Source of the DNA: an uncultured Oscillospiraceae bacterium
GTDB lineage: Bacteria; Bacillota; Clostridia; Oscillospirales; Oscillospiraceae
Reading direction: 5' to 3'
Length of the DNA stretch: 43,300 nt
NCBI GenBank assembly: GCA_964544345.1
Contig: CAZJBT010000002.1
Location: 1-43,300, forward strand
Below are positions 1,262 through 39,460 of this stretch, in pieces. The number at the start of each line of letters is the position of its first letter. Position 1 is the first letter of the stretch. Position numbers and translations under genes: made by a program. The notes beneath the pieces are model-generated. The model ran no database searches. It was given only the letters and a program-made list of their open reading frames with translations, and was not told the origin of the DNA.

Positions 1262-1302
1262 TGCGCAGATCGTTGCACATGCCGCGAAAAGCTGGTATAA
1301 TA

Positions 1303-1311
1303 CAAACAGTT
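1303..1311 (+). promoter_or_regulatory. Extended -10 promoter element TGgTATAAT
   Basis: TGGTATAAT lies about 75 nt upstream of the 1387 start. The same nonamer recurs at 3402 and 30398. Confidence 0.45.
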
Positions 1312-1386
1312 ACCGTGCTTATTATTTGCGCTGGAATGAAGTCCGGCGGCAATTGGCGCCGCGGCGCCGGAAAGGACGTGCTCTCA

Positions 1387-3375
1387 ATGGAACACCGCTA
1401 TTCGCATTTGCTCTCTCCCATCCGCGTCGGCAGCGTTTGGCTGCGCAACCGCATCTTCGGCACCTGCTGTCTGCCGCATTTCCTGCAGGGGCCGGAGACG
1501 TTCCCGTCCGAGTCTGTCATCGCCTTCGTCGAGGGGATCGCACGCGCCGGCGCTGCGCTCGTCACGATCCCCGACCGCTTCAACAACACCCGAAACATTC
1601 CGCTTGAGGACGTCTGCCGCGGCCCGTGCTGGGATCCGGCCGACCCGAGCGTCGACAATTATCTCGCGCAGATGATCGAGGCCGTCCACTTTCAGGGCGC
1701 GCGCATTTCGGTGCAGCTATCAAAATTCGCCTCGTTTCCGCCGGACGCGGGCGTGTACGACCACATCGACGACGGGAAGCACGCCATGATGCTCGATCTT
1801 GCCGAGGCCGACGAGTCCGCGCCGCCCAGCGGCCCGCCGCCGCGCCCGGTTCACGCGCTGACTGAGCCGGAGATGCAGGCCATCATCGACGAGGCAGTCG
1901 CGCGCTGCTCGTACTACAAGAGCGTCGGCTTTGACGGCGTCTGCCTGCACTATGCCTACAATTACAATCTGATCGGCAAATTCCTGTCGGCCAGTGCGAA
2001 CCAGCGCACGGATGGATACGGCGGCTCGATCGAAAACCGTGCGAAATTCCCGCTGCGCCTGGCTCGTGCGGTGCGCGATGCCGTCGGAGACGATCTGCTC
2101 ATCGAGCTGCAGATCTCCGGCGACTGCATGAGCGAAGACGAGCTGGTTCGCTTCGCCAAGCTCTGCGAGGGCACGGCCGACCTGCTCCAGATCCGCATCG
2201 AGGACATGGACGCTTCGCATATGACGGCGTACAACTACGACGGTGTGAGCGTCCCGCCGGCGGCGCATTATGCGGAGCTTATCAAGCGCTCCGGCGCTGC
2301 GATCGCAGTCGCGCCGAACGGCGGCTTCCACGACCCGGATGGGAACGAGCGGCTCATCGCCGAGGGTCGAACCGATGCGATCGCCATGGCGCGCCCGCTG
2401 ATCGCCGACCCGCAGTATCTTGACAAGCTCGTGGACGAGCGCCCGGGCGACATCACGCCGTGCCTGCACTGCAACCGCTGCCACACCCATGTCAAGGGGC
2501 AGTTTTTGTGTGCATGCGCAGTCAACCCCTATGTCGGCATCGCGCACCGCGCCGCCCGCATGGTACCGAAGCCGGGCGCACCGCAGCATGTCGCCGTCGT
2601 CGGCGGCGGCCCGGCGGGCATGCGCGCGGCACTGCTGTGCGCCGACCGCGGCCATACGGTCACACTCTTTGAGCGCGAGAGCACGCTCGGCGGCCAGCTC
2701 CGCCACGCGGACTACCCGCAGTTCAAATGGGCTGTGCGCCGGTATAAGGACTATCTCATCCGACAGGTGACGGAGAATCCGGCTGTCACGGTCTGCCTGA
2801 ACACGGACGCGACGCCGGAATCGGTGGAGGCAATGGGCTTTGACGCGGTCATCACCGCGCTCGGCGCCAAGCCAAAGCTGCCGCCCGTCCCCGGCGTGGA
2901 CACCGCAGGGGTCTGGACGCCGATCGGCGTCTACGGCCATGAGGCCGAGCTGGGACGGCGCGTCGTGGTCGTCGGCGGGTCGGAGACGGGAACGGAGACG
3001 GCGCTCTACCTTGCCGAGTGCGGCCATGAGGTCACCGTTGTCACGCGTCAAAACGTGCTTGCGCCCGAGGCGTGGTGCGTCCATGCCTACGCGCTGCTCC
3101 ACCGCCGCTGTAAGGCGTGCAAAAACCTTACGCCGGTCTTTCGCGCCGAGACGCTCGCGCTCGCGCCCGGCCGCGTCACCATCCGTACGCCGGAGGGCGA
3201 GCGGACGATAGCGTGCGATTCCATTGTCGCCTGCGGCGGCGTAGAGGGTCTGACGGACGAGGCCGCGGCCTTTTCCGGCGCAGCGCGCCGCGTCATCCAT
3301 ATCGGCGACAGCCTCATGCCGGGGAACATCCGCTCGACGTCGCGCATGGCGCTCGCCGCAGCGGCAAAGCTGTAA
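1387..3375 (+). CDS. 2,4-dienoyl-CoA-reductase / Old-Yellow-Enzyme-like flavoprotein (FMN barrel + 4Fe-4S + FAD/NAD domains), divergent paralogue 1
   Basis: Contains RTDGYGGSIENR in the barrel, the CLHCNRCH...C cysteine cluster, and Rossmann motifs VVGGGPAGM and VVGGSETG. The start is set at ATG 1387 (GGAAAGGA RBS) because the family-typical N-terminus HLLSPIRVG..RNRI begins there. Confidence 0.85.
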   Translation: MEHRYSHLLSPIRVGSVWLRNRIFGTCCLPHFLQGPETFPSESVIAFVEGIARAGAALVTIPDRFNNTRNIPLEDVCRGPCWDPADPSVDNYLAQMIEAVHFQGARISVQLSKFASFPPDAGVYDHIDDGKHAMMLDLAEADESAPPSGPPPRPVHALTEPEMQAIIDEAVARCSYYKSVGFDGVCLHYAYNYNLIGKFLSASANQRTDGYGGSIENRAKFPLRLARAVRDAVGDDLLIELQISGDCMSEDELVRFAKLCEGTADLLQIRIEDMDASHMTAYNYDGVSVPPAAHYAELIKRSGAAIAVAPNGGFHDPDGNERLIAEGRTDAIAMARPLIADPQYLDKLVDERPGDITPCLHCNRCHTHVKGQFLCACAVNPYVGIAHRAARMVPKPGAPQHVAVVGGGPAGMRAALLCADRGHTVTLFERESTLGGQLRHADYPQFKWAVRRYKDYLIRQVTENPAVTVCLNTDATPESVEAMGFDAVITALGAKPKLPPVPGVDTAGVWTPIGVYGHEAELGRRVVVVGGSETGTETALYLAECGHEVTVVTRQNVLAPEAWCVHAYALLHRRCKACKNLTPVFRAETLALAPGRVTIRTPEGERTIACDSIVACGGVEGLTDEAAAFSGAARRVIHIGDSLMPGNIRSTSRMALAAAAKL

Positions 3376-3402
3376 TTCTACTTTTCTCCGAACCGGATCC
3401 GT

Positions 3403-3527
3403 GGTATAATAGCTACGTCGGCGCATGTCGGCGCATTGCGCCGACGCGCTAAGAATTAAAAATCCCGGCCATGCGCGCAGAGCGCGCATATGGCCGATAT
3501 CCAATGGCCTTCGGTCATGGGATATCG
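3403..3527. repeat. Mosaic intergenic hairpin element, copy A
   Basis: The half-site ggtataatagcta is followed by hairpin 3421-3449 (gcgcatgtcggcgc att gcgccgacgcgc), the linker aagaattaaaaatcc, hairpin 3466-3496 (cggccatgcgcgc...gcgcatatggccg) and an imperfect hairpin at 3496-3526. About 75 bp is near-identical to 31602-31676. Confidence 0.8.
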
Positions 3528-3570: not shown

Positions 3571-4875
3571 ATGACGCCAGACGAATTGAAGGAGCTTTAC
3601 CGCTCTAAGTTTATCTCGCTCGAGCAGGCGCTGGACACGGTGCGCTCCGGCGACGTCATCGCCACGGGCAGCTACGGCAACGAGCCGGTCACGCTGCTGC
3701 GCAATCTGCACAAGGTCGCCGCGCGCGGGGTGGATGACCTGACGGTCTGGATGGGCATTCCCGCCGAGGAATACCCGTTCGTCTCGGACGACAGCCTGAC
3801 CGGCATCCATATTTTGAGCACATTTTACGGCCCGGCGCTGCGCAAGCACCACGCATCCGGACGCATCTCGTTTGTGCCGAACCATCTGCACGCGGTCTCC
3901 GGCGTCATCCAGAACTGCCGCAAGCCGAACGTGTTCTTTGCGGCCGTCACGCCGATGGATCAGTACGGCTGCGTCTGCATGTCGATGAGCCAGCAGATGG
4001 AGCTGGAGATGCTCGACCTGTGCGACACCGTGATCCTGGAGGTCAACGACAAGCTCCCGCGCACGCTCGGCACCATCCGTGTGCCGGTCGAGAAGGTCGA
4101 CTATTTCATCCGCTCCGACGCGGAGATCTCCCACGCTCCGCTCGAGGAGCCGGACGAGGTGACGGTGCGCATCGCGGAGAATGTTGCCGCGCTTATCGCA
4201 GACGGCGATACGATCCAGCTCGGCATCGGCACGCTGCCCGACGCTGTGGCGGAAAAGCTGACCGACCGCCGCGACCTGGGCATCTACACCGAAATGATCG
4301 GCACCTCGATGGGCAAGCTGATGTGGTGCGGCGCGGTCAACAACTCGCGCAAGCGCTTCTATCAGGGCCGCACGATCGGCGCCTTCGCCTGGGGCAGTCA
4401 GGATCTGTACAACTTCCTCGACGGCAATCCGATGGTCGAGCTGCTCCCGGCCAACTATGTCAACAATCCGTTTAATATCATGAAAAACGACAATATGGTG
4501 TCGGTCAATACGGCGCTGCAGATCGACCTGACGGGTCAGGTCTGCTCGGAGTTCATCGGCGGCCGGCAGTATTCCGGCACCGGCGGCGCGACGGACTTTG
4601 CCTACGGCGCATACCATGCGAAGGGCGGAAAGGGGATCATCGCCATGCGCTCGACGGCCAAGGGCGGCACGGTGTCGCGGATCGTGCCGTATCTCGCGCG
4701 CGGCGCAGTCGTGTCGATCCAGCGCAATATCGTCGACTATATCGTGACCGAGTATGGCGTCGCGCATATCCGTGACGGATCCATCCGCCAGCGGGTCGAG
4801 GGTCTGATCTCTATTGCACACCCGGATTTCCGCGGCGAGCTGCGTGCCGCCGCCCGGGAAAACGAGATCTGGTAA
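3571..4875 (+). CDS. Acetyl-CoA hydrolase/transferase family protein (family-I CoA-transferase, 4-hydroxybutyrate/butyryl-CoA:acetate CoA-transferase-like)
   Basis: Length is about 430 aa. It has a TEMIG block with a candidate catalytic Glu, a GTGGATDF (GxGGxxD) motif and the C-terminal block IVTEYGVA.IRD. A GGAGGAGGA RBS lies upstream. Confidence 0.85.
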   Translation: MTPDELKELYRSKFISLEQALDTVRSGDVIATGSYGNEPVTLLRNLHKVAARGVDDLTVWMGIPAEEYPFVSDDSLTGIHILSTFYGPALRKHHASGRISFVPNHLHAVSGVIQNCRKPNVFFAAVTPMDQYGCVCMSMSQQMELEMLDLCDTVILEVNDKLPRTLGTIRVPVEKVDYFIRSDAEISHAPLEEPDEVTVRIAENVAALIADGDTIQLGIGTLPDAVAEKLTDRRDLGIYTEMIGTSMGKLMWCGAVNNSRKRFYQGRTIGAFAWGSQDLYNFLDGNPMVELLPANYVNNPFNIMKNDNMVSVNTALQIDLTGQVCSEFIGGRQYSGTGGATDFAYGAYHAKGGKGIIAMRSTAKGGTVSRIVPYLARGAVVSIQRNIVDYIVTEYGVAHIRDGSIRQRVEGLISIAHPDFRGELRAAARENEIW

Positions 4876-14807: not shown

Positions 14808-16430
14808 TTATTTCGCGCGGGCGCAGGCGCGGCCGGCCTCGCGGCCAAGCGTCATGGCCATGCCGATGGACACGCCGGCGATCGGCGTGGTATAGGCCGG
14901 GCCGAAGCGGCGGCCGCAGCAGTTGCCAGTCGCGTATAGACCGGGGATCGGCTCATAGTCAAGCCCGAGCACGTTCTGCGTCTCGTCCGTGACGAAGCCG
15001 CCGACCGTGACGAGCATAAAGCCGAGGTCGCCCGTCTGCTCGCTCGCCTGCAGGAACAATCGGCCGGAGAGCGGGCGGAGCAGCTTTGCGTCCTTGCCAA
15101 AATCGTCGTCGCGCCCGGCGCGGCAGACCTCGTTGTACCGGTGGATCGAGCGGACGGCGTTCTCTGCTGCCTCGCCGGTCAGGCCGGCGTTTGCGACCAG
15201 CTCCTCCGGCGTCTCGCCGGAATAGATGGTCGGCGCGACATAGCCGAACGGGAACGCCTTGCGCATCGGTTCCATCGAGTCTGCGCCGCCGCGCGGATTT
15301 TCTGCGGCGTTGTCCATGATGGCGCGCAGGGCGCGCACGCTCTCGGGGTTGTGCTCGTCGAAGCCGCCGTGCGCCGGGACAGCCCACTGCAGATCGTCCA
15401 GGATATGTTCGTCAAAGATATTGTAGCGTGCGCCGAGCGGCATGGCGTTCGCGCCGAAGCCGGAGATCTCGGGGCCGCCGAAGGTCTCGTTGCAAAAGCG
15501 CTTCCCGTTTCGGTCGAGCCAGAGTACGCCGAAGGTCGTGAAGCCGGGGATCGTGACATAGTTGCCGCCCATGACGGGCAGCGGACGCGGCTCGAGCCGT
15601 CCGCCGGCCCAGACGCCGATCTGATGGCCGAGACCCTGCCGTCCGCCCTTGCGCGGGTATTCCTGCCCTTCGGGCAGCAGGTCGGTAATGTCGGTGACAA
15701 GCTCCATCATCATCTCGCGGTTGCCGGAGAAGTCGCCTGCGGCCAGGATCACGCCGCGCTTTGCGCGGTAGGCGCGGCAGACGCCCTCGCCGTTGCGGGT
15801 GATGATGCCGGCGACGCGCTTGCCGTCCATCACGGGCTGCACTGCCGTCTCGCCGAAACGCAGGAGCGCGCCCTTTTGCTCGGCCTTCTCGTGGTTGGCC
15901 TTTACCACGTCGGGCAGCGTTGGGAAGCCCGGCCAGCCGCGCGGGTCGGGGAACTGCGCCGTGCCGTTCCAGAAGTGGTAGCCGTTGTAGTCGGTTCCCG
16001 GGTGCGCCTTGAATTCGCGCGCGCCCTCGGGCCAGTAGGCGACGTGGACGTCGCGCAGGCCGTCAAGTCCGAACATGTCGGTGAACCAGTCGAACGCCGC
16101 GCCGGAATTCTGCGCGAACTGCATGACGAGCGAGGCGTTGACGCGCCCGACGGCGCGGCGCAGCAGCTCGTTGTACAGGTCGATGGGATCGACCCTCGGC
16201 ACGCCGCGGCTGGCGAGAAAGGCCGAATTGATATGGCCGATGTCGCGGCCGAAGCTGTCGAAGCGCTCGCGCTTCATCATCTCGATGCCGACGGCCGCCG
16301 CGCCCTCCTCGACCGCCGCGCGCAGCGCGGCGGTGCCGGCGTAGCCGAGGCCGACGACAACGACGTCCGTCTCGTGTGTCTCAGCGATCTGTTCCGGCGC
16401 GATCGGCGCCGGACGCTCCTTCCAACTCAT
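14808..16430 (-). CDS. FAD-dependent oxidoreductase (FAD_binding_2-like), paralogue of 40622-42259
   Basis: DVVVVGLGYAGTAALRAA dinucleotide fold and C-terminal IPGLYATGNCCGRRFG...PIAGVSIG. A GAAGGAGG RBS precedes ATG 16430. Long collinear identity to the 40622 gene is visible by eye. Confidence 0.82.
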   Translation of the reverse strand: MSWKERPAPIAPEQIAETHETDVVVVGLGYAGTAALRAAVEEGAAAVGIEMMKRERFDSFGRDIGHINSAFLASRGVPRVDPIDLYNELLRRAVGRVNASLVMQFAQNSGAAFDWFTDMFGLDGLRDVHVAYWPEGAREFKAHPGTDYNGYHFWNGTAQFPDPRGWPGFPTLPDVVKANHEKAEQKGALLRFGETAVQPVMDGKRVAGIITRNGEGVCRAYRAKRGVILAAGDFSGNREMMMELVTDITDLLPEGQEYPRKGGRQGLGHQIGVWAGGRLEPRPLPVMGGNYVTIPGFTTFGVLWLDRNGKRFCNETFGGPEISGFGANAMPLGARYNIFDEHILDDLQWAVPAHGGFDEHNPESVRALRAIMDNAAENPRGGADSMEPMRKAFPFGYVAPTIYSGETPEELVANAGLTGEAAENAVRSIHRYNEVCRAGRDDDFGKDAKLLRPLSGRLFLQASEQTGDLGFMLVTVGGFVTDETQNVLGLDYEPIPGLYATGNCCGRRFGPAYTTPIAGVSIGMAMTLGREAGRACARAK

Positions 16431-16513
16431 AAAAGCGCCTCCTTCGGTGCTGTTTTTCCTTTGCGGCATGACCCTTTTCTCCAAGCGCCTGCGCGCTGAG
16501 CGCACAGATGCGC

Positions 16514-16541
16514 GTATCACAGCCGCTTGCAGCTATGATAG
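16514..16541 (-). promoter_or_regulatory. Imperfect dyad gtatcacagccg-N4-cagctatgatag overlapping a minus-strand TGcTATCAT extended -10
   Basis: Related to the perfect dyads at 30466-30494, 31572-31598 and 31700-31726. It lies about 85-110 nt upstream of the 16430 start. Confidence 0.45.
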
Positions 16542-16619
16542 CATGGATCTCTGCCGAACCAAACTGTTTTTCTGTTGAAAGGAGCTGCCGCAGCAGCATT
16601 TGCGGCAGCTCCGGTGCGG

Positions 16620-28553: not shown

Positions 28554-30197
28554 TCAATAGACGAAGGTCACATCGATGCAGGTCGGGTTGGCCGGGTTGC
28601 CCATCGGGAAATCGGCGATCTTGGTGTTGTTCCAGACCAGCATACTGACACGCTCGCAGACGTTGAGTACCATATGCTCGTCGACGAGGAAGTTCTGCAG
28701 GAAGGAGTAGCCCTCGGCGCGGACGTCGGAGTCGACGCTGTTGGTGGCCTTCTCATATGCTTCGTCCCACTCGGGCGTGCTGATGGACATGGCGTCCGTC
28801 GTGGAGGTGGGGGCGTAGTTGGCAAAGACGTTGACCGGGTCGGAGAAGTATGCGCCGTCGATGGTCTCGCCGATCAGGACGTCGCTTTCGCCTTCCTTCC
28901 ACATGCCGATCAGGGTGCCGATGTCATAGGTCTCGACCGTCAGGGTGATGCCGACGGCGGCGAGATACGCCTGCAGCGCCTCGGCGAGAACCTGGTTGCC
29001 GGTATCGGTCAGCAGACGCAGGGTGATATCGCCGTCAGAGTAGCCGGCCTCTTCCAGCAGCTCGCGGGCACGGTCGGGATCGTAGGTGTTGGTGCCGACG
29101 TTCTCATAGAACTGGACGTTGGTGGTGATGATGGAGGTCGCTTCGATCCACAGCGGGCCGTAGTTGGCGATGGCGAGGGATTCGACGTCGACGGCCAGGC
29201 AGAACGCTTCGCGGACGCGCTCGTCGTCAAAGAACGGGCAGGTGTCGCAGAGCTGGATACGGGTGACGTCCTTCGCGGAGATGAGGTCGTACGAGGTGAA
29301 GTCCGCGCAGTCGCCGGCGATGACGCGCTCGGCGTCCATCGCGCTGATGCCGAAGGCGGCGTCGAGCGTGCCGTTCTCAAAGTCGATGTAGAGCGCGGAC
29401 GGCTCGGAGTAGTATTTGTAGGTGACGGTCTCGGCCTGCGGCAGCTCGCCCCAGTACTGGTCGGCGCTCTTGCGCTCATAGGAGATCGTGGAGGCCGCGA
29501 TGTTCTCGGTGCAGATGTACGGGCCGGTGCCGTTCGGATCGTTGAACCAGTCCTCAGCGGTGTAGTTCGCGATATCCTCGGCGCAGAAGATCGCCCAGCA
29601 GGTCAGGTAGCTGATGGCGGGGCCATAGATGCGGTTGAACGCGAAGTAGAGCGTGAGGTCGTCTTCGACATAGCAGTTATCCCAGTCGAAGACCTCCCAG
29701 AAGGTGCTCTCACGGCCAAACTCGTTCCAGGCCTTGTAGGTCTCCATGACGTCGTTCGCGGTCAGCTTCTGGCCGTGGGTGAAGTAGACGTTGTCGCGGA
29801 TCTTGATCTTGATGGTGTAGTCGTCGACGTATTCCACGCTCTCAGCAAGCTGGTACTCAAGCTCGCCGGACGGGAGGACGTCGAGCAGGTACTCGAAGCA
29901 CATGCGGATCTGGGTGGGGTTGTCAGTGTAGGTGCGGAAGTCGAACGTGTCGTTCTTGACCGCGGAGCCGATGACCAGCGAGTAGTCGCCGGACGGTTCG
30001 CCGCCGGACGAAGCCGGCTCGCCGCTGTTGGCCGGCTGCTGGGTGTCGCCGCCGGACGAGGCCGGCTCGCCGCTGTTGGCTGGCTGCTGGGTGTCGCCGC
30101 CGTCCGTATCGCCCTCATCCTTCGAGCAGGCGGAGAGGACAGAAAAAACCATGGCAAGCGCGAGAAGCAGTGCGAGCAATTTCGTGTACTTTTTCAT
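28554..30197 (-). CDS. Family-5 ABC substrate-binding lipoprotein, copy 2, with a repeat-containing linker
   Basis: Lipobox LSACSK and a duplicated 16-aa unit GDTQQPANSGEPASSG after the lipidated Cys. The mature domain is collinear with the other two binding proteins. A GGAGGA RBS lies upstream. Confidence 0.85.
   Translation of the reverse strand: MKKYTKLLALLLALAMVFSVLSACSKDEGDTDGGDTQQPANSGEPASSGGDTQQPANSGEPASSGGEPSGDYSLVIGSAVKNDTFDFRTYTDNPTQIRMCFEYLLDVLPSGELEYQLAESVEYVDDYTIKIKIRDNVYFTHGQKLTANDVMETYKAWNEFGRESTFWEVFDWDNCYVEDDLTLYFAFNRIYGPAISYLTCWAIFCAEDIANYTAEDWFNDPNGTGPYICTENIAASTISYERKSADQYWGELPQAETVTYKYYSEPSALYIDFENGTLDAAFGISAMDAERVIAGDCADFTSYDLISAKDVTRIQLCDTCPFFDDERVREAFCLAVDVESLAIANYGPLWIEATSIITTNVQFYENVGTNTYDPDRARELLEEAGYSDGDITLRLLTDTGNQVLAEALQAYLAAVGITLTVETYDIGTLIGMWKEGESDVLIGETIDGAYFSDPVNVFANYAPTSTTDAMSISTPEWDEAYEKATNSVDSDVRAEGYSFLQNFLVDEHMVLNVCERVSMLVWNNTKIADFPMGNPANPTCIDVTFVY
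30001..30102. repeat. 48-bp in-frame tandem repeat (2.1 copies) inside the binding-protein gene
   Basis: 30001-30048 and 30049-30096 differ at two positions. A partial third copy gccgcc follows. Confidence 0.9.
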
Positions 30198-30268
30198 TGT
30201 TTTCCTCCGTTAAATGAATTATGATAGGCGCGGCCGGTCAGGCGGCGCAGATCACCGACGGGCAGGTG

Positions 30269-30289
30269 GATTTTTTGTACAAAAAAATC
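30269..30289. promoter_or_regulatory. AT-rich palindrome gattttttgtacaaaaaaatc in the divergent LysR / binding-protein control region
   Basis: Near-perfect inverted repeat centred on GTAC. It lies just downstream of the predicted minus-strand promoter. Confidence 0.35.
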
Positions 30290-30306
30290 GCTGACCTTTC
30301 TGATAA

Positions 30307-30336
30307 AGTATAGCTTTTCCACAAAGAAAAGTCCAA
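30307..30336 (-). promoter_or_regulatory. Candidate promoter TTGGAC-18-TATACT for the 30197 binding-protein gene
   Basis: The minus strand reads ttggac ttttctttgtggaaaagc tatact. Confidence 0.4.
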
Positions 30337-30377
30337 TGATTTTCCCCTATCCTAGTGATTCCTGCCCGGAATAACGC

Positions 30378-30406
30378 TTGCCGCGGTGCGCGGCGAATGG
30401 TATAAT
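30378..30406 (+). promoter_or_regulatory. Candidate promoter TTGCCG-17-(TGg)TATAAT for the LysR gene 30547
   Basis: Extended -10 TGGTATAAT, identical to those at 1303 and 3402. Confidence 0.5.
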
Positions 30407-30510
30407 AGCTGTAAGGTAGGGATTTTGATCTTCAGCATGTCGGCGCACAGCGCCGACATGCGCGGGTATCATAGCTGCAAAGCAGCTATGATACCATGAC
30501 CGCTGGTCTC
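30399..30510. repeat. Mosaic intergenic hairpin element, copy B
   Basis: Contains ggtataatagctg, a perfect 12-bp-stem hairpin at 30435-30461 (gcatgtcggcgc aca gcgccgacatgc), a 12-5-12 palindrome at 30466-30494 and a truncated accatgaccgctggtc module. Confidence 0.8.
30466..30494. promoter_or_regulatory. Perfect 12-5-12 dyad gtatcatagctg caaag cagctatgatac
   Basis: Perfect inverted repeat. The left arm contains a -10-like TATCAT. It lies in the leader of, or upstream of, the LysR gene. Confidence 0.5.
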
Positions 30511-30546
30511 GTATCACGAAAAAAGACGCATAGGAGGCGGAGACAG

Positions 30547-31473
30547 ATGGAAATTGCGCAGCTCCAGTATTTTACCGTACTGGCCAGGACGGAGCACATG
30601 ACAAAGGCGGCGGAGCTTCTGAACATCTCGCAGCCGACGCTGAGCAAGTCGATCTCGAATCTGGAAGCGGAGCTGGGTCTTCCGCTGTTCTCCCGGACGG
30701 GGCACCAGATCTCGCTCAACCACGAGGGGCGCATCCTGCTTCGCTACGCGCAGCTCGTGCTCAAGGATCTCGACGCCGCACGGCAGGTGATGCACGATCT
30801 GTCGACCGGCGTGACCGGCCAGATCGCCATTGGCACGACGATGAGCTTCGATCCGGCCAGCCCGGTGCGCTGCTATCTGGGGGACTTTTTCCTGCGCTAC
30901 CCAAACGTGTCGCAGAAGGTCTACACGCTTGACATGGGTCGGTGTCTTGATTCGCTGCTCGCGGGTCGGTTCAATTTTATTTTCACCATCCGCGTGCCGG
31001 ACACGCCCGGCATCGTCTGGACGCCGCTGTATGAGTCGCACATCGACGCGCTCGTGCCGGAGAGCCACCCGTTCGCGCGGCGCGCGGTGCTCAGTCTTGA
31101 CGACCTGAAGGACGAGCCGCTTCTGTGCAACGTCTCGGTGGCCGACGGCATCGACATCGTGCAGAATCTGGCCAATCAGACCGGCCACGAGCCGAGCCTG
31201 CTCTACGACGGCTATGATATGGAGCTGATCACGAAGGCGGTCGGCCGCGGCTTTGGCGTTGGTCTGGCCACGTCCACCGCGCTGGCGGACTATGCCGAGC
31301 AGCACGGCCTGCTGTCCGGCTCGCAGTCCGTGCGGATCGTCCCGCTGCGTGACGCCAAGCTCAACCGCACGGTCTCCATCGGCCACCGCGTGGATCAGAG
31401 CTTCACGCCGGCTGCGCGCGAGTTCTTTGAAGGTCTCGTCCACTGGTGCCGCCAAAGCGATCCGCAGAGATAG
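30547..31473 (+). CDS. LysR-family transcriptional regulator
   Basis: MEIAQLQYFTVLARTEHMTKAAELLNISQPTLSKSISNLEAELGLPLF. An AGGAGG RBS lies upstream. It is divergent from the binding-protein/flavoprotein genes. Confidence 0.9.
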   Translation: MEIAQLQYFTVLARTEHMTKAAELLNISQPTLSKSISNLEAELGLPLFSRTGHQISLNHEGRILLRYAQLVLKDLDAARQVMHDLSTGVTGQIAIGTTMSFDPASPVRCYLGDFFLRYPNVSQKVYTLDMGRCLDSLLAGRFNFIFTIRVPDTPGIVWTPLYESHIDALVPESHPFARRAVLSLDDLKDEPLLCNVSVADGIDIVQNLANQTGHEPSLLYDGYDMELITKAVGRGFGVGLATSTALADYAEQHGLLSGSQSVRIVPLRDAKLNRTVSIGHRVDQSFTPAAREFFEGLVHWCRQSDPQR

Positions 31474-31571
31474 GCGGCGCGGCGGACAGGATCGCTGAAC
31501 CAGGCGCGTATCCGGCAAGCTTCGCGGGCAATTGCGCTGCATTTTGTTTGTGCACGAACAGTGATCCATAC

Positions 31572-31598
31572 TAAAATAGCTGCTTTGCAGCTATTTTA
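31572..31598. promoter_or_regulatory. Perfect 11-5-11 dyad taaaatagctg ctttg cagctatttta
   Basis: Perfect inverted repeat with the same arms as 31700-31726. It abuts a possible TTGTTT-17-CATACT promoter at 31544-31572. Confidence 0.45.
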
Positions 31599-31676
31599 GC
31601 TGCGCATGTCGGCGCACCGCGCCGACGCGCTGAGAATTAAAATCCCGGCCATGCGCGCAGAGCACGCGAATGGCCG

Positions 31677-31705
31677 TTTACCATGACCGCAGGTCATGGT
31701 AAAAT
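31677..31705 (+). promoter_or_regulatory. Candidate promoter TTTACC-17-(TGg)TAAAAT for the flavoprotein gene 31773
   Basis: Extended -10 TGGTAAAAT. The -10 hexamer is part of the left arm of the dyad at 31700-31726. Confidence 0.45.
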
Positions 31706-31726
31706 AGCTGTAAAACAGCTATTTTA
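31700..31726. promoter_or_regulatory. Perfect 11-5-11 dyad taaaatagctg taaaa cagctatttta overlapping the -10
   Basis: Perfect inverted repeat, 47 nt upstream of ATG 31773. Confidence 0.5.
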
Positions 31727-31772
31727 CCCGCGCAGCATTGAGAGATCAGAGATGAAATAAAGGAGAATCGGG

Positions 31773-33281
31773 ATGAAACAGCTTGAGGCAGATGTGATCA
31801 TCGTCGCCGGCGGTATGTCCGGCATCTGCGCCGCGGCGGCCGCGGCGGAAAAAGGCGCGTCGGTGCTCGTCTTTGAAAAGACGAGCACGGTCGGCGGCGC
31901 GGCGAACATGGGCATGGGCTTCTTTGCGGTCGAATCGCATATTCAGAAGGCGAACCTGATCGGTATGACGGTCGACGAGGCGTTCATGCGTTTTATGAAC
32001 TTCAACCACTGGAAGGCGAACGCCGCGCTGGTGCACAAGCTGTTCGCGCAGTCCGGCAGCACGGTCAAATGGATCGAGGATATGGGCGTCGAGTTCCTTG
32101 GCGCGTTCAAGTATTTTGACGATTCCGAGGCGACCTGGCACATCCCGAAGGTGCCCGGCTCGAACAAGCCGGTGCCGCGCTGCGCGGCGATCCTGGTCAA
32201 GGCGATCTACGATTACGCCCTGGCGCTCGGCGTGCAGTTCGTTTTCAACACAACGGTCAAGCAGCTCAAATATGACGGCACGCGCGTCACGGGCGTTCTG
32301 GCTGTCAGCGACGCGGGCGAGGAGTACGATGCGGAGTCCGACGCCGTCATCGTCTGCACCGGCGGCTTCGGCGACGATCCTGAGAAGATCGAGAAGTACA
32401 TGGGCTACCGCCACGGCGAGAACCTGTTCTCCTTCCGCATCCCTGGCCTGAAGGGCGAGGGCATGCAGATGGCGTGGGACATCGGCGCGGCAAAAACGAA
32501 CATGGTCATGGAGATGACCTACGAGACGCCCGCGCGCGTCGGCGGCGCGGCTGTCGACACGATGATGCGCCAGCCGAACCTGATGGTCAATCTGCTCGGC
32601 AAGCGCTTCTTCAACGAGGAGATGATGGCCGTTACGCCGTTCGCCGGCAATGCCATCGCGCAGCAGAAGGACTGTGTCGGCTACTCGCTGATCTCGAGCG
32701 ATATCGTCGAGACCTACCGCGAGACAGGCATCGACTTCAACTCCTATCACAAGCATCTGAACAGCGTCTCGGAGTGGGACGGGGCCGTAAAGAAATATAT
32801 CGAGGGCGGTCAGGTGGCCGAGATGAACGCGCTCATGGGCGTGAAGCGCGAGGAGAAATTTTTCTTCGTGGCCGACTCGGTGGAGGATCTGGCCGGGCAG
32901 CTCGGCGTCGACCCCGCCGCGCTCGGCGAGACCGTCGCGCGCTACAACGCCATGTGCGCGGCCGGCGCGGACGCCGACTTCGGCAAGCAGCGCCGGTACC
33001 TGCGCCCGCTGACCGGCGAGAAATTCTACGCCTGCAAGTACTACCCGTCCGGCTACGGCTCGCTCGGCGGCATCAAGACCGACGAGAACCTCCAGGTCGT
33101 GCGCGAGGACTTCTCGCCGATCCCCGGCCTGTTCTCCGCCGGTACGGACTGCTGCACCATCTTCGGCGACACGTATATGTTCTATTTCCCCGGCTCGACG
33201 ATGGGCTTTGCCATCAACTCCGGCCGCATGGCCGGCTACAACGCGGTGAACTTTATCGACACCTATGCGTTTGGGGACTGA
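31773..33281 (+). CDS. Soluble FAD-dependent oxidoreductase, fumarate-reductase/KstD (FAD_binding_2) family
   Basis: DVIIVAGGMSGICAAAAAAEKGASVLVFEK.STVGG, VIVCTGGFG and the C-terminal IPGLFSAG block. An AAAGGAG RBS lies upstream. Confidence 0.85.
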   Translation: MKQLEADVIIVAGGMSGICAAAAAAEKGASVLVFEKTSTVGGAANMGMGFFAVESHIQKANLIGMTVDEAFMRFMNFNHWKANAALVHKLFAQSGSTVKWIEDMGVEFLGAFKYFDDSEATWHIPKVPGSNKPVPRCAAILVKAIYDYALALGVQFVFNTTVKQLKYDGTRVTGVLAVSDAGEEYDAESDAVIVCTGGFGDDPEKIEKYMGYRHGENLFSFRIPGLKGEGMQMAWDIGAAKTNMVMEMTYETPARVGGAAVDTMMRQPNLMVNLLGKRFFNEEMMAVTPFAGNAIAQQKDCVGYSLISSDIVETYRETGIDFNSYHKHLNSVSEWDGAVKKYIEGGQVAEMNALMGVKREEKFFFVADSVEDLAGQLGVDPAALGETVARYNAMCAAGADADFGKQRRYLRPLTGEKFYACKYYPSGYGSLGGIKTDENLQVVREDFSPIPGLFSAGTDCCTIFGDTYMFYFPGSTMGFAINSGRMAGYNAVNFIDTYAFGD

Positions 33282-38434: not shown

Positions 38435-38471
38435 TATGTGATAAAATAATTCCGCAGAGGTGAAATGCAGA

Positions 38472-39410
38472 ATGGAACTGGAGTACTTATGCGAATTTGT
38501 CGCCGTTGTGGATTGCGGCAGCTTCTCCAGAGCGGCTGAGAAGATCTGCATTTCGCAGTCGTCGCTGTCAAAGCACATCATGGCGCTTGAGCGCGAATTG
38601 GGTCTGAAGCTGATCGACCGAAAGCCGCGCTTGATCGAATTGACGCCGTCCGGCGCGCAGCTTCTGCCGCTGGCGCGGCAGGCGCAGGCGCTCAGCGAGG
38701 CGCTGGCCGCCGCCGTCCGGAAGGAGCGGCATCGCGGCCTGTTGGAGCTGCAGCTTGCGACTGTGCCGGAGATGGCGCAGTATGGCCTGACCGCCGTGCT
38801 GTCCCGGTTCCGGAAGGCTTACCCGGAGGTGGAGCTGATCGTGACCGAATGTGAAAAGCCGGCGGATGCGCTGGCCGGGCTTGCATCCGGCCGCTTTGAG
38901 CTGGCCTTTTCCCGTCGTGTGGAGGATGACTACGGTGACCTGGATTACCTCCGGTTCCGGCCGGACAAGGTCGCGGCGGTGCTGCCTGCGGGGCACCGGC
39001 TCAGCGGAGAGAGGATCATCCCGCTGAAGGCGCTTGAGCACGAGCGGTTTTATCTGCTCGACAGGACGACGGGGCTGCATGATCTGTGCGTCCGGCTCTG
39101 CCGGGAGACGGGGTTTAGCCCGAACGTGGTCTACACGGGGAGCCGGCCGGAGAATATCCTCGGTATGGTCGCGCAGGAGATGGGCGTGGCTCTGCTGATG
39201 CGGCGGCATGCCGACTTCCTGAATTATGTGGGTACGGTGTGCGTGGACATCGAGCCGACCATCGACAGCCCGATCTGCCTGGTGCGGCACGGCGGCCGGC
39301 CGCTCTCCCGGGTGGGCAGACTGTTCTGGGATGCACAGGCCAAGGAGGTGGAGGGGCTGAGCTTTGAGCCGGTTCCAAGGCCGCAGGACGCAGAGGTACA
39401 GATACTATAA
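38472..39410 (+). CDS. LysR-family transcriptional regulator
   Basis: MELEYLCEFVAVVDCGSFSRAAEKICISQSSLSKHIMALERELGLKLI. ATG 38472 behind a GAGGTG RBS is preferred over GTG 38460. Confidence 0.88.
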   Translation: MELEYLCEFVAVVDCGSFSRAAEKICISQSSLSKHIMALERELGLKLIDRKPRLIELTPSGAQLLPLARQAQALSEALAAAVRKERHRGLLELQLATVPEMAQYGLTAVLSRFRKAYPEVELIVTECEKPADALAGLASGRFELAFSRRVEDDYGDLDYLRFRPDKVAAVLPAGHRLSGERIIPLKALEHERFYLLDRTTGLHDLCVRLCRETGFSPNVVYTGSRPENILGMVAQEMGVALLMRRHADFLNYVGTVCVDIEPTIDSPICLVRHGGRPLSRVGRLFWDAQAKEVEGLSFEPVPRPQDAEVQIL

Positions 39411-39423
39411 TAATATTAGGAAC

Positions 39424-39460
39424 GGGAGCCATGTCCGGCGCTGCGCCGGACATGGCTCCC
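39424..39460. terminator. 17-bp-stem hairpin between convergent genes, related to the hairpin-1 module of the mosaic repeats
   Basis: gggagccatgtccggcg ctg cgccggacatggctccc. The core catgtc(c)ggcgc...gcgcc(g)gacatg resembles 30435-30461. Confidence 0.6.

What the first reader, a model, noticed from the sequence alone, without database searches (positions are those of the whole stretch)
31572..31726. Mosaic family of intergenic hairpin modules (BIME/REP-like) present at 3403-3527, 30399-30510 and 31572-31726
Three intergenic regions are built from the same small set of modules in different combinations:
- a half-site GGTAWHATAGCTG;
- hairpin 1 (gcatgtcggcgc...gcgccgacatgc);
- an AT linker (agaattaaaa(a)tcc);
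- hairpin 2 (cggccatgcgcgc...gcgnatggccg);
- hairpin 3 (accatgacc...ggtcatggt).

Copies A and C share about 75 bp that are nearly identical. A hairpin-1 relative also forms the convergent terminator at 39424-39460.

All three full copies lie directly upstream of catabolic or regulatory genes and carry -10-like hexamers. They may be repeats that deliver promoters, or shared structured leaders. I do not recognise this family.
Basis: seen in the sequence. Interest (0 to 1): 0.62.

Follow-up and report, generated by a model that had tools for sequence, protein, structure and literature searches.

The report
Hairpin repeats anchored on promoter boxes
Three gene-upstream regions carry copies of a small non-coding, hairpin-rich DNA element that was inserted directly behind the -10 box of existing promoters; its core palindrome is widespread in gut Oscillospiraceae and I found no description of it, so it looks like a promoter-seeking mobile repeat rather than a regulator of these genes.

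Summary
The modules sit at the stated coordinates; TAWHATAGCTG occurs 8 times against 0.01 expected, and copies A and C share 69 of 76 bases.

The conserved unit is a palindrome, P: TGGTAnnAT-AGCTG-N5-CAGCT-ATnnTACCA. Its left arm is a Gram-positive extended -10 box. A scan of one genome per species found P in 60 loci, almost all Oscillospiraceae or other Clostridia. There it usually heads a unit of about 111 bp (P, long GC hairpin, short hairpin, second -10 box), often in tandem, upstream of unrelated housekeeping genes. The free arm positions covary (60 of 61 paired).

In mouse-gut metatranscriptomes, RNA coverage at three Anaerotruncus loci starts at P and runs into the gene.

Related contigs with the same genes keep the TGGTATAAT-type promoter box (TGATACAAT in L181) but lack the element, for all three copies. 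In the window, 114-157 bp are inserted at the -10 hexamer: directly behind it in A and B, within a few bases in C.

It is therefore a dispersed insertion element anchored on promoters. It is not a REP/BIME member, not a LysR operator and not a riboswitch. There was no hit in Rfam, the papers searched or viral contigs.

The enzyme and mechanism of movement are unknown. The window's own genome could not be searched, so the genome-wide copy number of H1 and H2 is untested.

The parts
3402..3410 (+). Copy A: ancestral extended -10 box TGGTATAAT of the CoA-transferase promoter.
   Evidence: The box is conserved as (C/T)GTGGTATAAT or TATACT in orthologous upstream regions L184-L190, which lack the element.
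3411..3526 (+). Copy A insertion of about 116 bp: AGCT stub, hairpin 1 (3421-3449), AT linker (3450-3465), hairpin 2 (3466-3496) and hairpin 3/S (3496-3526). Hairpin 3 ends in a degenerate second box, TGGGATATC (3518-3526). It is predicted to be transcribed as the 5' leader of gene 3571-4875.
   Evidence: Absent from three groups of relatives. RNA fold -63.5 kcal/mol, z = -5.3. 69/76 identical to copy C.
30378..30406 (+). Copy B: ancestral LysR promoter TTGCCG-17-TGgTATAAT.
   Evidence: Found by the promoter scan. Conserved in L181 and L182, where the ribosome-binding site follows within 8-14 nt.
30407..30520 (+). Copy B insertion of about 114 bp: AGCTG, inverted linker (30419-30434), hairpin 1 (30435-30461), palindrome P (30465-30495) and partial hairpin 3 (30490-30515). 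The P-hairpin 1-linker block is inverted relative to C. On the minus strand, P carries GTGATA-18-TGgTATCAT, pointing at the binding-protein operon.
   Evidence: Alignment gap of 114 columns directly after TATAAT. Inverted repeat I8. Promoter scan. Fold z = -6.2.
31571..31728 (+). Copy C insertion of about 157 bp: P1 (31571-31599), hairpin 1 (31602-31630), linker (31631-31645), hairpin 2 (31646-31676), hairpin 3/S (31677-31703) and P2 (31698-31728).
   Evidence: The upstream flank (ATTTTGTTTG...GTGAT) is homologous to the L181 promoter up to P1, and the downstream flank is homologous from CCCGC onward. The spacer is 29 bp in L182, 110 bp in L183 and 179 bp in L181, none with the modules. Fold z = -7.6.
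31677..31705 (+). Element-borne proximal promoter for the FAD_binding_2 gene 31773-33281. The -35 (TTTACC) lies in the left arm of hairpin 3, and TGgTAAAAT lies in the left arm of P2.
   Evidence: Promoter scan: 9 of 12 hexamer matches, plus a TG before the -10 hexamer. The predicted 60-nt leader is unstructured, z = +0.75.
16515..16545 (-). Fourth, imperfect P (TGcTATCATAGCTG-caag-CGGCTGTGATA) upstream of the FAD_binding_2 paralogue that ends at 14808. Both arm mismatches are T.G, which would be G.U pairs in sense RNA.
39424..39460 (.). 17-bp-arm hairpin between convergent genes. Its arms resemble hairpin 1 with one extra base. It probably acts as a terminator, and membership of the family is unproven.

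Best explanation
The three regions, plus a fourth relic at 16.5 kb, are copies of a non-coding, hairpin-rich insertion element of gut Oscillospiraceae. The element is anchored on sigma-A extended -10 promoter boxes.

**Anatomy.** The canonical unit is about 110-130 bp and has four parts:
1. Box 1 (TGGTAnnAT) followed by AGCTG-N5-CAGCT and an inverted copy of the box. Together these form palindrome P.
2. One long GC-rich hairpin. In this genome it is replaced by hairpin 1, an AT linker and hairpin 2.
3. A short hairpin S (hairpin 3 here). Its 3' arm runs into box 2.
4. Box 2, a second -10 box.

**Shown here.**
- Each copy starts at the -10 hexamer of a promoter that relatives already have without the element: directly behind it in A and B, within a few bases in C.
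- P recurs across many genera, next to unrelated genes, in the orientation of a complete promoter.
- The two arms of P covary.
- In a related genus, transcripts begin at P.

**Inferred.**
- The element moves, or once moved, by a mechanism that recognises the -10 box. This may work through DNA hairpins that contain the box, with an enzyme supplied in trans.
- After insertion, transcription from box 1 starts in the P loop. Copies A and B then become about 115 nt of structured 5' leader.
- In C, the element's 3' end supplies the working proximal promoter.
- The effect on expression is probably modulatory (mRNA stability, pausing or promoter strength). It is not a specific response to a metabolite.
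For: **Insertion at the -10 box.**
- Copy B: the window has 114 extra bases directly after TGGTATAAT, compared with L181 and L182.
- Copy A: about 116 extra bases after the same box, compared with L184, L188 and L189.
- Copy C: flank homology to L181 stops at P1 and resumes after P2. The local alignment scores 32, against 17.7 +/- 3.0 for shuffles.

**Dispersal.**
- 60 loci matched the pattern in genome contigs, where my rough estimate (not computed) of chance matches is about 9. Nearly all are Oscillospiraceae or other Clostridia.
- There are at least 12 loci in Anaerotruncus sp. G3(2012) alone, and tandem arrays with a 102-113 bp period.
- DNA word depth over P in G3-like strains is about 15 times that of the flanks, with several different flanking sequences.

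**Promoter architecture.**
- The side of P flanked by TG has TTG at -35 (16-18 bp spacer) in 35% of cases. The other side has it in 3%, and shifted controls in 6%.
- T-R-T-G precedes the box, and the loop consensus is CAAAG in that orientation.
- 27 of 68 oriented copies have a second box 85-125 nt downstream, mostly at 109-112.

**Not a regulon.** Downstream genes are heterogeneous: Lon, LepA, UvrB, DnaG, DinB, a DEAD-box helicase, cyclophilin, Asp23, MoaC, IlvD and others.

**Covariation in the palindrome arms**.
- Position 3 of the box: 60/61 paired with four pair types (shuffle mean 36, maximum 44).
- Position 4: 57/61 paired (shuffle 46, maximum 51).
- The flanking G-C position: 43/61 paired (shuffle 25, maximum 36).

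**Transcription.** At L046, L023 and L038, RNA contigs from 3-4 metatranscriptomes give zero depth upstream of P, with coverage from P into the gene.
Against: - The window's own genome could not be searched. No sequencing run holds the window. Copy number and transcription in this organism are therefore untested.
- Hairpins 1 and 2 were found nowhere else. The strict metagenome pattern gave 0 hits.
- No transposase or recombinase has been linked to the family.
- The element has no terminal inverted repeats. Box 2 is not always identical to box 1, so a classical target-site duplication is not established.
- Polarity (insertion here versus precise loss in relatives) rests on parsimony.
- The RNA evidence comes from assembled contigs of a different genus, without strand or 5'-end resolution. 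Some contigs include the -10 hexamer itself, as expected for read-through inside arrays.
- The alignment for copy C is ambiguous within a few bases.
Confidence: 0.7

Rival explanations
1. The palindromes are operators of the neighbouring LysR regulator (30547-31473) or of another transcription factor. Under this reading the factor autoregulates at copy B and controls the reductase gene at copy C.
For: Copies B and C flank a LysR gene. The dyads overlap -10 elements, where repressors often bind. The window is rich in LysR genes.
Against: - The same palindrome precedes about 30 unrelated housekeeping genes in other genera, mostly with no regulator as the gene immediately downstream.
- Orthologous LysR loci L181 and L182 have the promoter but no palindrome.
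- Both arms change together at positions inside the -10 hexamer, which a protein site does not require.
- The dyad is 13-5-13, not a T-N11-A LysR box.
- Copy A has only a half-site.
Confidence: 0.06
2. The modules form a cis-regulatory RNA leader (riboswitch, attenuator or protein-binding leader) shared by co-regulated catabolic genes.
For: Copies A and B are predicted to be transcribed as very stable leaders, with z = -5 to -6. In hairpin 3 of A and in the imperfect P at 16.5 kb, the mismatches are G.U on the sense strand.
Against: - No Rfam match even at permissive thresholds.
- The block is inverted in B.
- Most of C lies upstream of the proximal promoter.
- Orthologues lack it.
- No junction or loop nucleotides are conserved, only perfect stems.
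- No terminator U-run follows any hairpin on the sense strand.
Confidence: 0.08
3. There is no dedicated mobility. The shared blocks spread locally by ectopic recombination or gene conversion between similar TGGTATAAT promoter boxes inside one island of paralogous genes. Hairpins are kept perfect by template-switch 'palindrome correction'.
For: - All copies of hairpins 1 and 2 known so far lie within 28 kb of each other.
- The boxes give 9 bp of microhomology on each side.
- Arrays vary in unit number between strains, as expected from unequal exchange.
Against: - The P-long hairpin-S-box architecture recurs at scattered loci on many contigs of single genomes and across genera.
- Within-genome copies share lineage-specific flanks.
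- The downstream genes of A, B and C are not paralogues.
Confidence: 0.12
4. It is a member of the REP/BIME class, mobilised by a RAYT (REP-associated tyrosine transposase).
For: Mosaic of short palindromes in alternating orientation with defined linkers. Tandem reiteration. A likely hairpin-dependent mechanism.
Against: - There is no GTAG or other conserved 5' tetranucleotide of the REP type.
- It sits at promoters, oriented toward the gene, rather than after genes.
- It occurs in Firmicutes, whereas characterised REP/RAYT systems are proteobacterial (my own knowledge).
- RAYT linkage is untestable here.
Confidence: 0.04

Closest known systems
Correia elements (CREE/NEMIS) of Neisseria (compared from my own knowledge, not by sequence)
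   Same: Small (about 100-150 bp), non-coding, multi-copy and intergenic. They carry -10/-35-like boxes at their ends, are co-transcribed with neighbouring genes, form strong hairpins, and alter the expression of adjacent genes.
   Different: Correia elements have 26-nt terminal inverted repeats and a TA target duplication, and they create promoters wherever they land. The element here has no terminal inverted repeats. It is bounded by direct copies of the -10 box, and 3 of 3 copies lie directly behind a pre-existing -10 hexamer.
REP/BIME mosaics of enterobacteria and pseudomonads
   Same: Mosaic combinations of a few palindromic units and linkers, in both orientations, with tandem reiteration. 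No coding capacity.
   Different: No GTAG-tagged palindrome. Located at promoters instead of 3' of genes. Different phylum. No known RAYT partner.
BOX elements of Streptococcus pneumoniae (boxA-boxB(n)-boxC; my own knowledge)
   Same: A modular Firmicute repeat with an internally reiterated module and a strong predicted secondary structure. It sits upstream of genes and can affect their expression.
   Different: Unrelated sequence. BOX elements are not tied to the -10 hexamer and do not contain promoter-box palindromes.
'Putative mobile promoters' / promoter reuse (Nijveen, Matus-Garcia and van Passel, PMC3575422)
   Same: Highly similar upstream sequences in front of non-homologous genes. Here A and C are 91% identical upstream of a CoA-transferase gene and a flavoprotein gene.
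   Different: That concept is descriptive and names no structure or target. Here the shared block lies downstream of an ancestral -10 box and has a defined hairpin architecture.
IS200/IS605-derived non-autonomous elements (PATEs), which use single-strand transposition (my own knowledge)
   Same: Hairpins at the element ends. Insertion immediately 3' of a short specific sequence. No terminal inverted repeats.
   Different: The target here would be a 6-9-nt promoter box that is itself part of the hairpin. No TnpA has been linked, and a second copy of the box lies at the 3' end.

Membership tests
REP/BIME | Imperfect palindrome of 20-40 nt with a conserved 5' GTAG-type tetranucleotide. | tested here: not met
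   The arms of P begin (T)GGTAWWAT. The hairpin 1-3 arms have no common tetranucleotide.
REP/BIME | Lies mostly after genes or between convergent genes. | tested here: not met
   Copies lie upstream of genes and point at them. The TG-flanked side carries a -35 TTG in 35% of cases, against 3% on the other side.
REP/BIME | A cognate RAYT transposase gene in the genome. | not testable with these tools
REP/BIME | Mosaic of units in alternating orientation with set linkers. | tested here: met
   Copies A, B and C combine P, hairpin 1, linker, hairpin 2 and hairpin 3 differently, and the block in B is inverted.
Correia-type MITE | Terminal inverted repeats matching a parent insertion sequence. | tested here: not met
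   The element ends are direct copies of the -10 box. Inverted copies are internal.
Correia-type MITE | Short fixed target-site duplication. | tested here: inconclusive
   Box 1 and box 2 flank the unit, but they are not always identical, for example TACAAT versus TATCAT in L059.
Correia-type MITE | Carries functional promoter boxes and is co-transcribed with neighbouring genes. | tested here: met
   Promoter scan. RNA coverage from P into the genes at three Anaerotruncus loci.
Putative mobile promoters | Near-identical upstream DNA before non-homologous genes. | tested here: met
   A and C are 69/76 identical. The downstream genes are AcetylCoA_hyd_C and FAD_binding_2.
IS200/IS605-type single-strand elements (PATE) | Insertion 3' of a fixed short target, with hairpins at the ends. 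| tested here: inconclusive
   Copies A and B start directly after TATAAT, and C starts at or within a few bases of the ancestral -10. Hairpins are present. The cleavage and guide logic was not testable.
IS200/IS605-type single-strand elements (PATE) | A Y1 HUH transposase present in trans. | not testable with these tools
No transposase was found among the 30 downstream genes scanned.
Any Rfam RNA family | Score at or above the family's gathering threshold. | tested here: not met
   0 hits in the window. Only noise at E<=5 in 30200-31800. No relevant hit in seven related loci.
LysR-type operator | T-N11-A dyad, present at orthologous regulated promoters. | tested here: not met
   The dyad is 13-5-13. 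Orthologous LysR promoters in L181 and L182 lack it.

The most novel reading that the evidence does not exclude
The element is a promoter-homing mobile repeat. It would recognise the sigma-A extended -10 box itself, perhaps while the box is single-stranded in an open complex or at a replication fork, and integrate directly behind it.

In this reading, integration also lays down an inverted copy of that particular box. That would explain why the two arms of P covary with the local -10 variant (TACAAT, TAGAAT, TAAAAT, TATCAT).

The resulting promoter-in-a-palindrome could then tune transcription. One route is cruciform extrusion sensitive to supercoiling. Another is sigma-dependent pausing at the -10-like TATTAT in the first transcribed bases.

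If so, this family would be a genome-wide way of rewiring promoters in an abundant group of gut bacteria.
Probability: 0.25. Interest if true: 0.85.

Novelty: new variant of a known kind. Interest (0 to 1): 0.64.

Why it matters
Interspersed hairpin repeats are well studied in Proteobacteria, Neisseria and streptococci. To my knowledge they are barely described in Oscillospiraceae, one of the dominant families of the mammalian gut.

Three things would follow if a repeat sits exactly on the -10 box of promoters, recurs before unrelated housekeeping and catabolic genes, and varies in copy number between strains:
- It would be a source of strain-level differences in gene expression.
- It would be a confounder for promoter and small-RNA prediction in these genomes.
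- It would be a cause of broken assemblies.

Specificity for the -10 box would also be an unusual choice of target for a mobile element. The family offers natural, compact extended -10 promoters for genetic tools in hard-to-engineer gut Clostridia.

For this window, the practical point is that the shared modules do not indicate co-regulation of the CoA-transferase, LysR and flavoprotein genes.

Tried and rejected
- **Sequencing runs.** No public run holds the window. The two window proteins I looked up (the flavoprotein and the CoA-transferase) are not in the exact-match contig index.
- **Metagenome scans.** The strict hairpin 1-linker pattern gave 0 hits. Hairpin 1 alone is therefore too GC-generic to trace.
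- **Viral contigs.** P is absent from 2.9 million viral contigs, so a phage origin is not supported.
- **Rfam and literature.** Rfam gave nothing at gathering or permissive thresholds. A search of the literature for the sequence itself returned only unrelated primer and siRNA matches.
- **CRISPR-like array.** Rejected, because the 'spacers' within an array are identical.
- **Terminator reading of hairpin 2 plus linker.** The T-run lies only on the minus strand, and there is no minus-strand gene to terminate.
- **Copy D.** Aligning its upstream region with its paralogue at 40.5 kb was uninformative.
- **Copy C alignment.** MAFFT's alignment against L181 was ambiguous. I replaced it with anchored pairwise alignments.
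- **Empty sites in other strains.** Laying four mouse-gut DNA runs on L023 showed no empty-site joint.
- **Transcription start.** RNA contigs could not fix the exact start, because repeat words from arrays are merged.

Full report
**1.

- **Palindromes.** There are three perfect palindromes with the core ATAGCTG-N5-CAGCTAT, at 30465-30495, 31571-31599 and 31698-31728. There are two half-sites, at 3403-3415 and 30399-30411. A fourth, imperfect palindrome lies on the minus strand at about 16515-16541.
- **Chance.** TAWHATAGCTG occurs 8 times, against 0.01 expected.
- **Hairpin 1** is in all three copies.
- **The AT linker and hairpin 2** are in A and C. B has the linker inverted.
- **Hairpin 3** is in all three copies, in variant forms.
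- **A versus C.** They are 69/76 identical over hairpin 1, linker and hairpin 2.
- **B versus C.** The P-hairpin 1-linker block of B is the reverse complement of that of C (repeat I8).
- **Folding.** All three regions fold much better than shuffled controls, with z = -5.3, -6.2 and -7.6.

**2. Gene context**

- Copy A lies between a 2,4-dienoyl-CoA-reductase-like flavoenzyme (1273-3375) and an acetyl-CoA hydrolase/transferase gene (3571-4875).
- Copy B lies between a divergent family-5 binding-protein gene (28554-30197, minus strand) and a LysR gene (30547-31473).
- Copy C lies between that LysR gene and a FAD_binding_2 flavoprotein gene (31773-33281).

The downstream genes are not paralogues of each other.

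**3. The conserved unit is a promoter box folded into a palindrome, and it is widespread**

*Distribution.* I scanned one genome per prokaryotic species for TANNATAGCTGNNNNNCAGCTATNNTA. My rough estimate, not computed by a tool, is that about 9 matches would arise by chance. The scan returned 60 loci, nearly all Oscillospiraceae or other Clostridia. They include Anaerotruncus, Flavonifractor, Lawsonibacter, Oscillibacter, Agathobaculum, Acutalibacter and many metagenome-assembled genomes. Anaerotruncus sp. G3(2012) alone gave at least 12 loci, some with tandem arrays of 102-113 bp period.

*Covariation.* The two positions left free in each arm covary. Pairing is kept in 60/61 and 57/61 distinct copies, with four pair types (TA, AT, CG, GC). 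The best of 2000 shuffles reached 44 and 51. The next outward position also covaries, at 43/61 against a maximum of 36.

*Promoter asymmetry.* One flank usually reads T-R-T-G-n before TATAAT, which is the Gram-positive extended -10 consensus (established knowledge). That side alone carries TTG 16-18 bp upstream: 35% of cases, against 3% on the other side and 6% in shifted controls. In that orientation the loop consensus is C-A-A-A-G, which places an A 6-8 nt after the -10 box.

*Downstream genes.* They are functionally unrelated: Lon, LepA, UvrB, DnaG, DinB, a DEAD-box helicase, cyclophilin, Asp23, MoaC, IlvD, RluD, RlmL and various regulators. This rules out a regulon operator.

**4. A common architecture**

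In promoter orientation, many copies in many genera read as follows:
- box 1, then AGCTG-N5-CAGCT, then inverted box 1 (together, P);
- a long GC-rich hairpin;
- a short hairpin S, whose arms are an inverted box and the TGG of box 2;
- box 2 (TGGTATAAT), lying 109-112 nt after box 1.

A second box at 85-125 nt is present in 27 of 68 oriented copies.

The window's copies fit this plan. Hairpin 3 is the S module. In copy C its right arm, GGTCATGG, runs into TAAAAT. Hairpin 1, the linker and hairpin 2 take the place of the single long hairpin. The long hairpin differs between lineages. Eleven of the 60 loci share a CGCCCC-N4-GGGGCAACCG core that the window lacks.

**5. Transcripts start at P in a related genus**

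No run holds the window itself. Mouse-gut metatranscriptomes do hold Anaerotruncus G3-like strains.

At three loci, RNA contigs from 3-4 runs give zero depth in the 60-200 nt upstream of P, and coverage from P through the leader into the gene. The loci are L046 (Asp23), L023 (cyclophilin) and L038 (HAD hydrolase).

These are assembled contigs without strand or 5'-end resolution, and repeat words from arrays are merged. They support P as the transcription boundary but do not fix +1.

In DNA runs, word depth over P is about 15 times the flank depth, with several different flanking sequences. In the isolate's own run, array words are 3-9 times flank depth. Some strains have fewer array units.

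**6. The key result for this window: the elements are insertions at pre-existing -10 boxes**

The closest homologues of the flavoprotein (83-84% identity) and of the CoA-transferase (86-91%) led to related contigs.

- **Synteny.** L181 has the same gene order as window 26.4-35.2 kb.
- **Copy B.** The LysR promoter TTGCC(G/C)-17-TGgTATAAT is conserved in L181 and L182, and there the ribosome-binding site follows 8-14 nt later. The window has 114 extra bases starting immediately after TATAAT.
- **Copy A.** Three groups of relatives, each with a different upstream neighbour, all have (C/T)GTGGTATAAT or TATACT followed by a short leader. The window has about 116 extra bases directly after the hexamer, and homology resumes at ...GCAAAGAA.
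- **Copy C.** The LysR-flavoprotein spacer is 29 bp in L182, 110 bp in L183 and 179 bp in L181. L181 carries a TTGAAC...TGaTACAAT promoter there. The window's flank is homologous to that promoter up to P1 (local score 32, against 17.7 +/- 3.0 for shuffles), and homology resumes after P2. The inserted block is therefore P1 to P2, about 157 bp.
- **No family motifs in the relatives.** None of these contigs (roughly 50 kb in all) contains P or a half-site.

Parsimony favours insertion in the window's lineage. The window also has extended -10 promoters without the element, at 1293 and 38439.

**7. Consequences predicted for the three genes (inference)**

- **A and B.** The ancestral box should still fire. 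The element then becomes a hairpin-dense 5' leader of about 115 nt.
- **B, minus strand.** P also offers GTGATA-18-TGgTATCAT pointing at the binding-protein operon.
- **C.** The element's 3' end forms a complete promoter. The -35, TTTACC, lies in the left arm of hairpin 3, and TGgTAAAAT lies in P2. The resulting 60-nt leader is unstructured.

**8. What it is not**

- No Rfam family matches, even permissively.
- P is absent from viral contigs.
- The literature search by sequence found nothing relevant.
- It lacks the GTAG-tagged palindromes and the gene-end location of REP/BIME.
- It lacks the terminal inverted repeats of Correia-type MITEs.
- It fits the descriptive notion of reused or mobile promoters (PMC3575422, found).

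**9. Mechanism**

- *Shown:* the position of the copies at -10 boxes; the multi-copy, multi-genus distribution; the covarying palindrome; the polymorphism in tandem unit number.
- *Inferred:* movement by an enzyme acting in trans that recognises the box, probably as part of a DNA hairpin, since both P and S place a box inside a stem.
- *Unknown:* the enzyme; whether the two boxes are a true target duplication, since they are not always identical; and whether the inverted box is brought in by the element or copied from the target.

A non-mobile alternative, ectopic exchange between 9-bp boxes, cannot be excluded for hairpins 1 and 2, because they are so far known only from this window.

**10. 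Earlier notes of this scan**

These notes were read and treated as leads only. They describe what seems to be the same family in other Oscillospiraceae genomes and reach a similar reading.

I tested the claim that the element 'sits on the -10 box' independently for this window (section 6). One note on this window called the TGGTATAAT of copy A 'repeat-borne'. The orthologue comparison contradicts that.

**11. Verdict**

This is a real, dispersed, promoter-anchored hairpin element that I did not find described. It is a new variant within the known world of bacterial interspersed repeats and MITE-like elements.

It does not signal co-regulation of the flanking genes. The main gaps are the census in the window's own genome, exact transcription starts, and the mobilising enzyme.

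Noticed in passing
L023:2181-2668 (Anaerotruncus sp. G3(2012)): A stretch next to a P element has RNA contig depth of 10^4 to 2.5x10^5 in three mouse-gut metatranscriptomes, far above its neighbours. It matches no Rfam family at gathering threshold. It is an unidentified, very abundant transcript.
   Followed up: partly
L004, L009, L015, L021, L022, L027, L029, L034, L035, L051, L058: In these loci from several genera, the long-hairpin module of the family shares the core CGCCCC-N4-GGGGCAACCG. That is much more conserved than the rest of the hairpin, and it may be a protein or enzyme recognition site. The window's copies lack it.
   Followed up: partly
window 1293-1301 and 38439-38447: These are extended -10 promoters without any element behind them. 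TTGCAC...TGGTATAAT precedes the reductase gene, and TGATAAAAT precedes LysR 38460. They are unoccupied potential targets, and they show that the box alone is common here.
   Followed up: no
L043:5196-5640: The four-unit array in the isolate is shorter in mouse-gut strains: contigs of runs X9 and X14 skip 258 bp. Array length therefore differs between strains.
   Followed up: partly
L181:1-13506 (GCA_964523945.1): This contig is syntenic with window 26.4-35.2 kb (two OYE-type reductases, binding protein, LysR, flavoprotein, LysR, DAPG-hydrolase-like). It then diverges and ends in a phage-integrase gene, which suggests the reductase/phenolic island is itself shuffled between relatives.
   Followed up: no
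window 16440-16545 (minus strand): The imperfect P upstream of the FAD_binding_2 paralogue differs from a perfect palindrome only by two T.G oppositions. These would be G.U pairs in sense RNA and C.A mismatches on the other strand. The same T.G position recurs in imperfect copies in L004, L037 and L041.
   Followed up: partly
window 39405-39460: The LysR 38460-39410 stop codon overlaps a TATAAT, and 14 nt later comes a 17-bp-arm hairpin whose arms resemble hairpin 1. It may be a relic of another element, or it may be coincidence.
   Followed up: no
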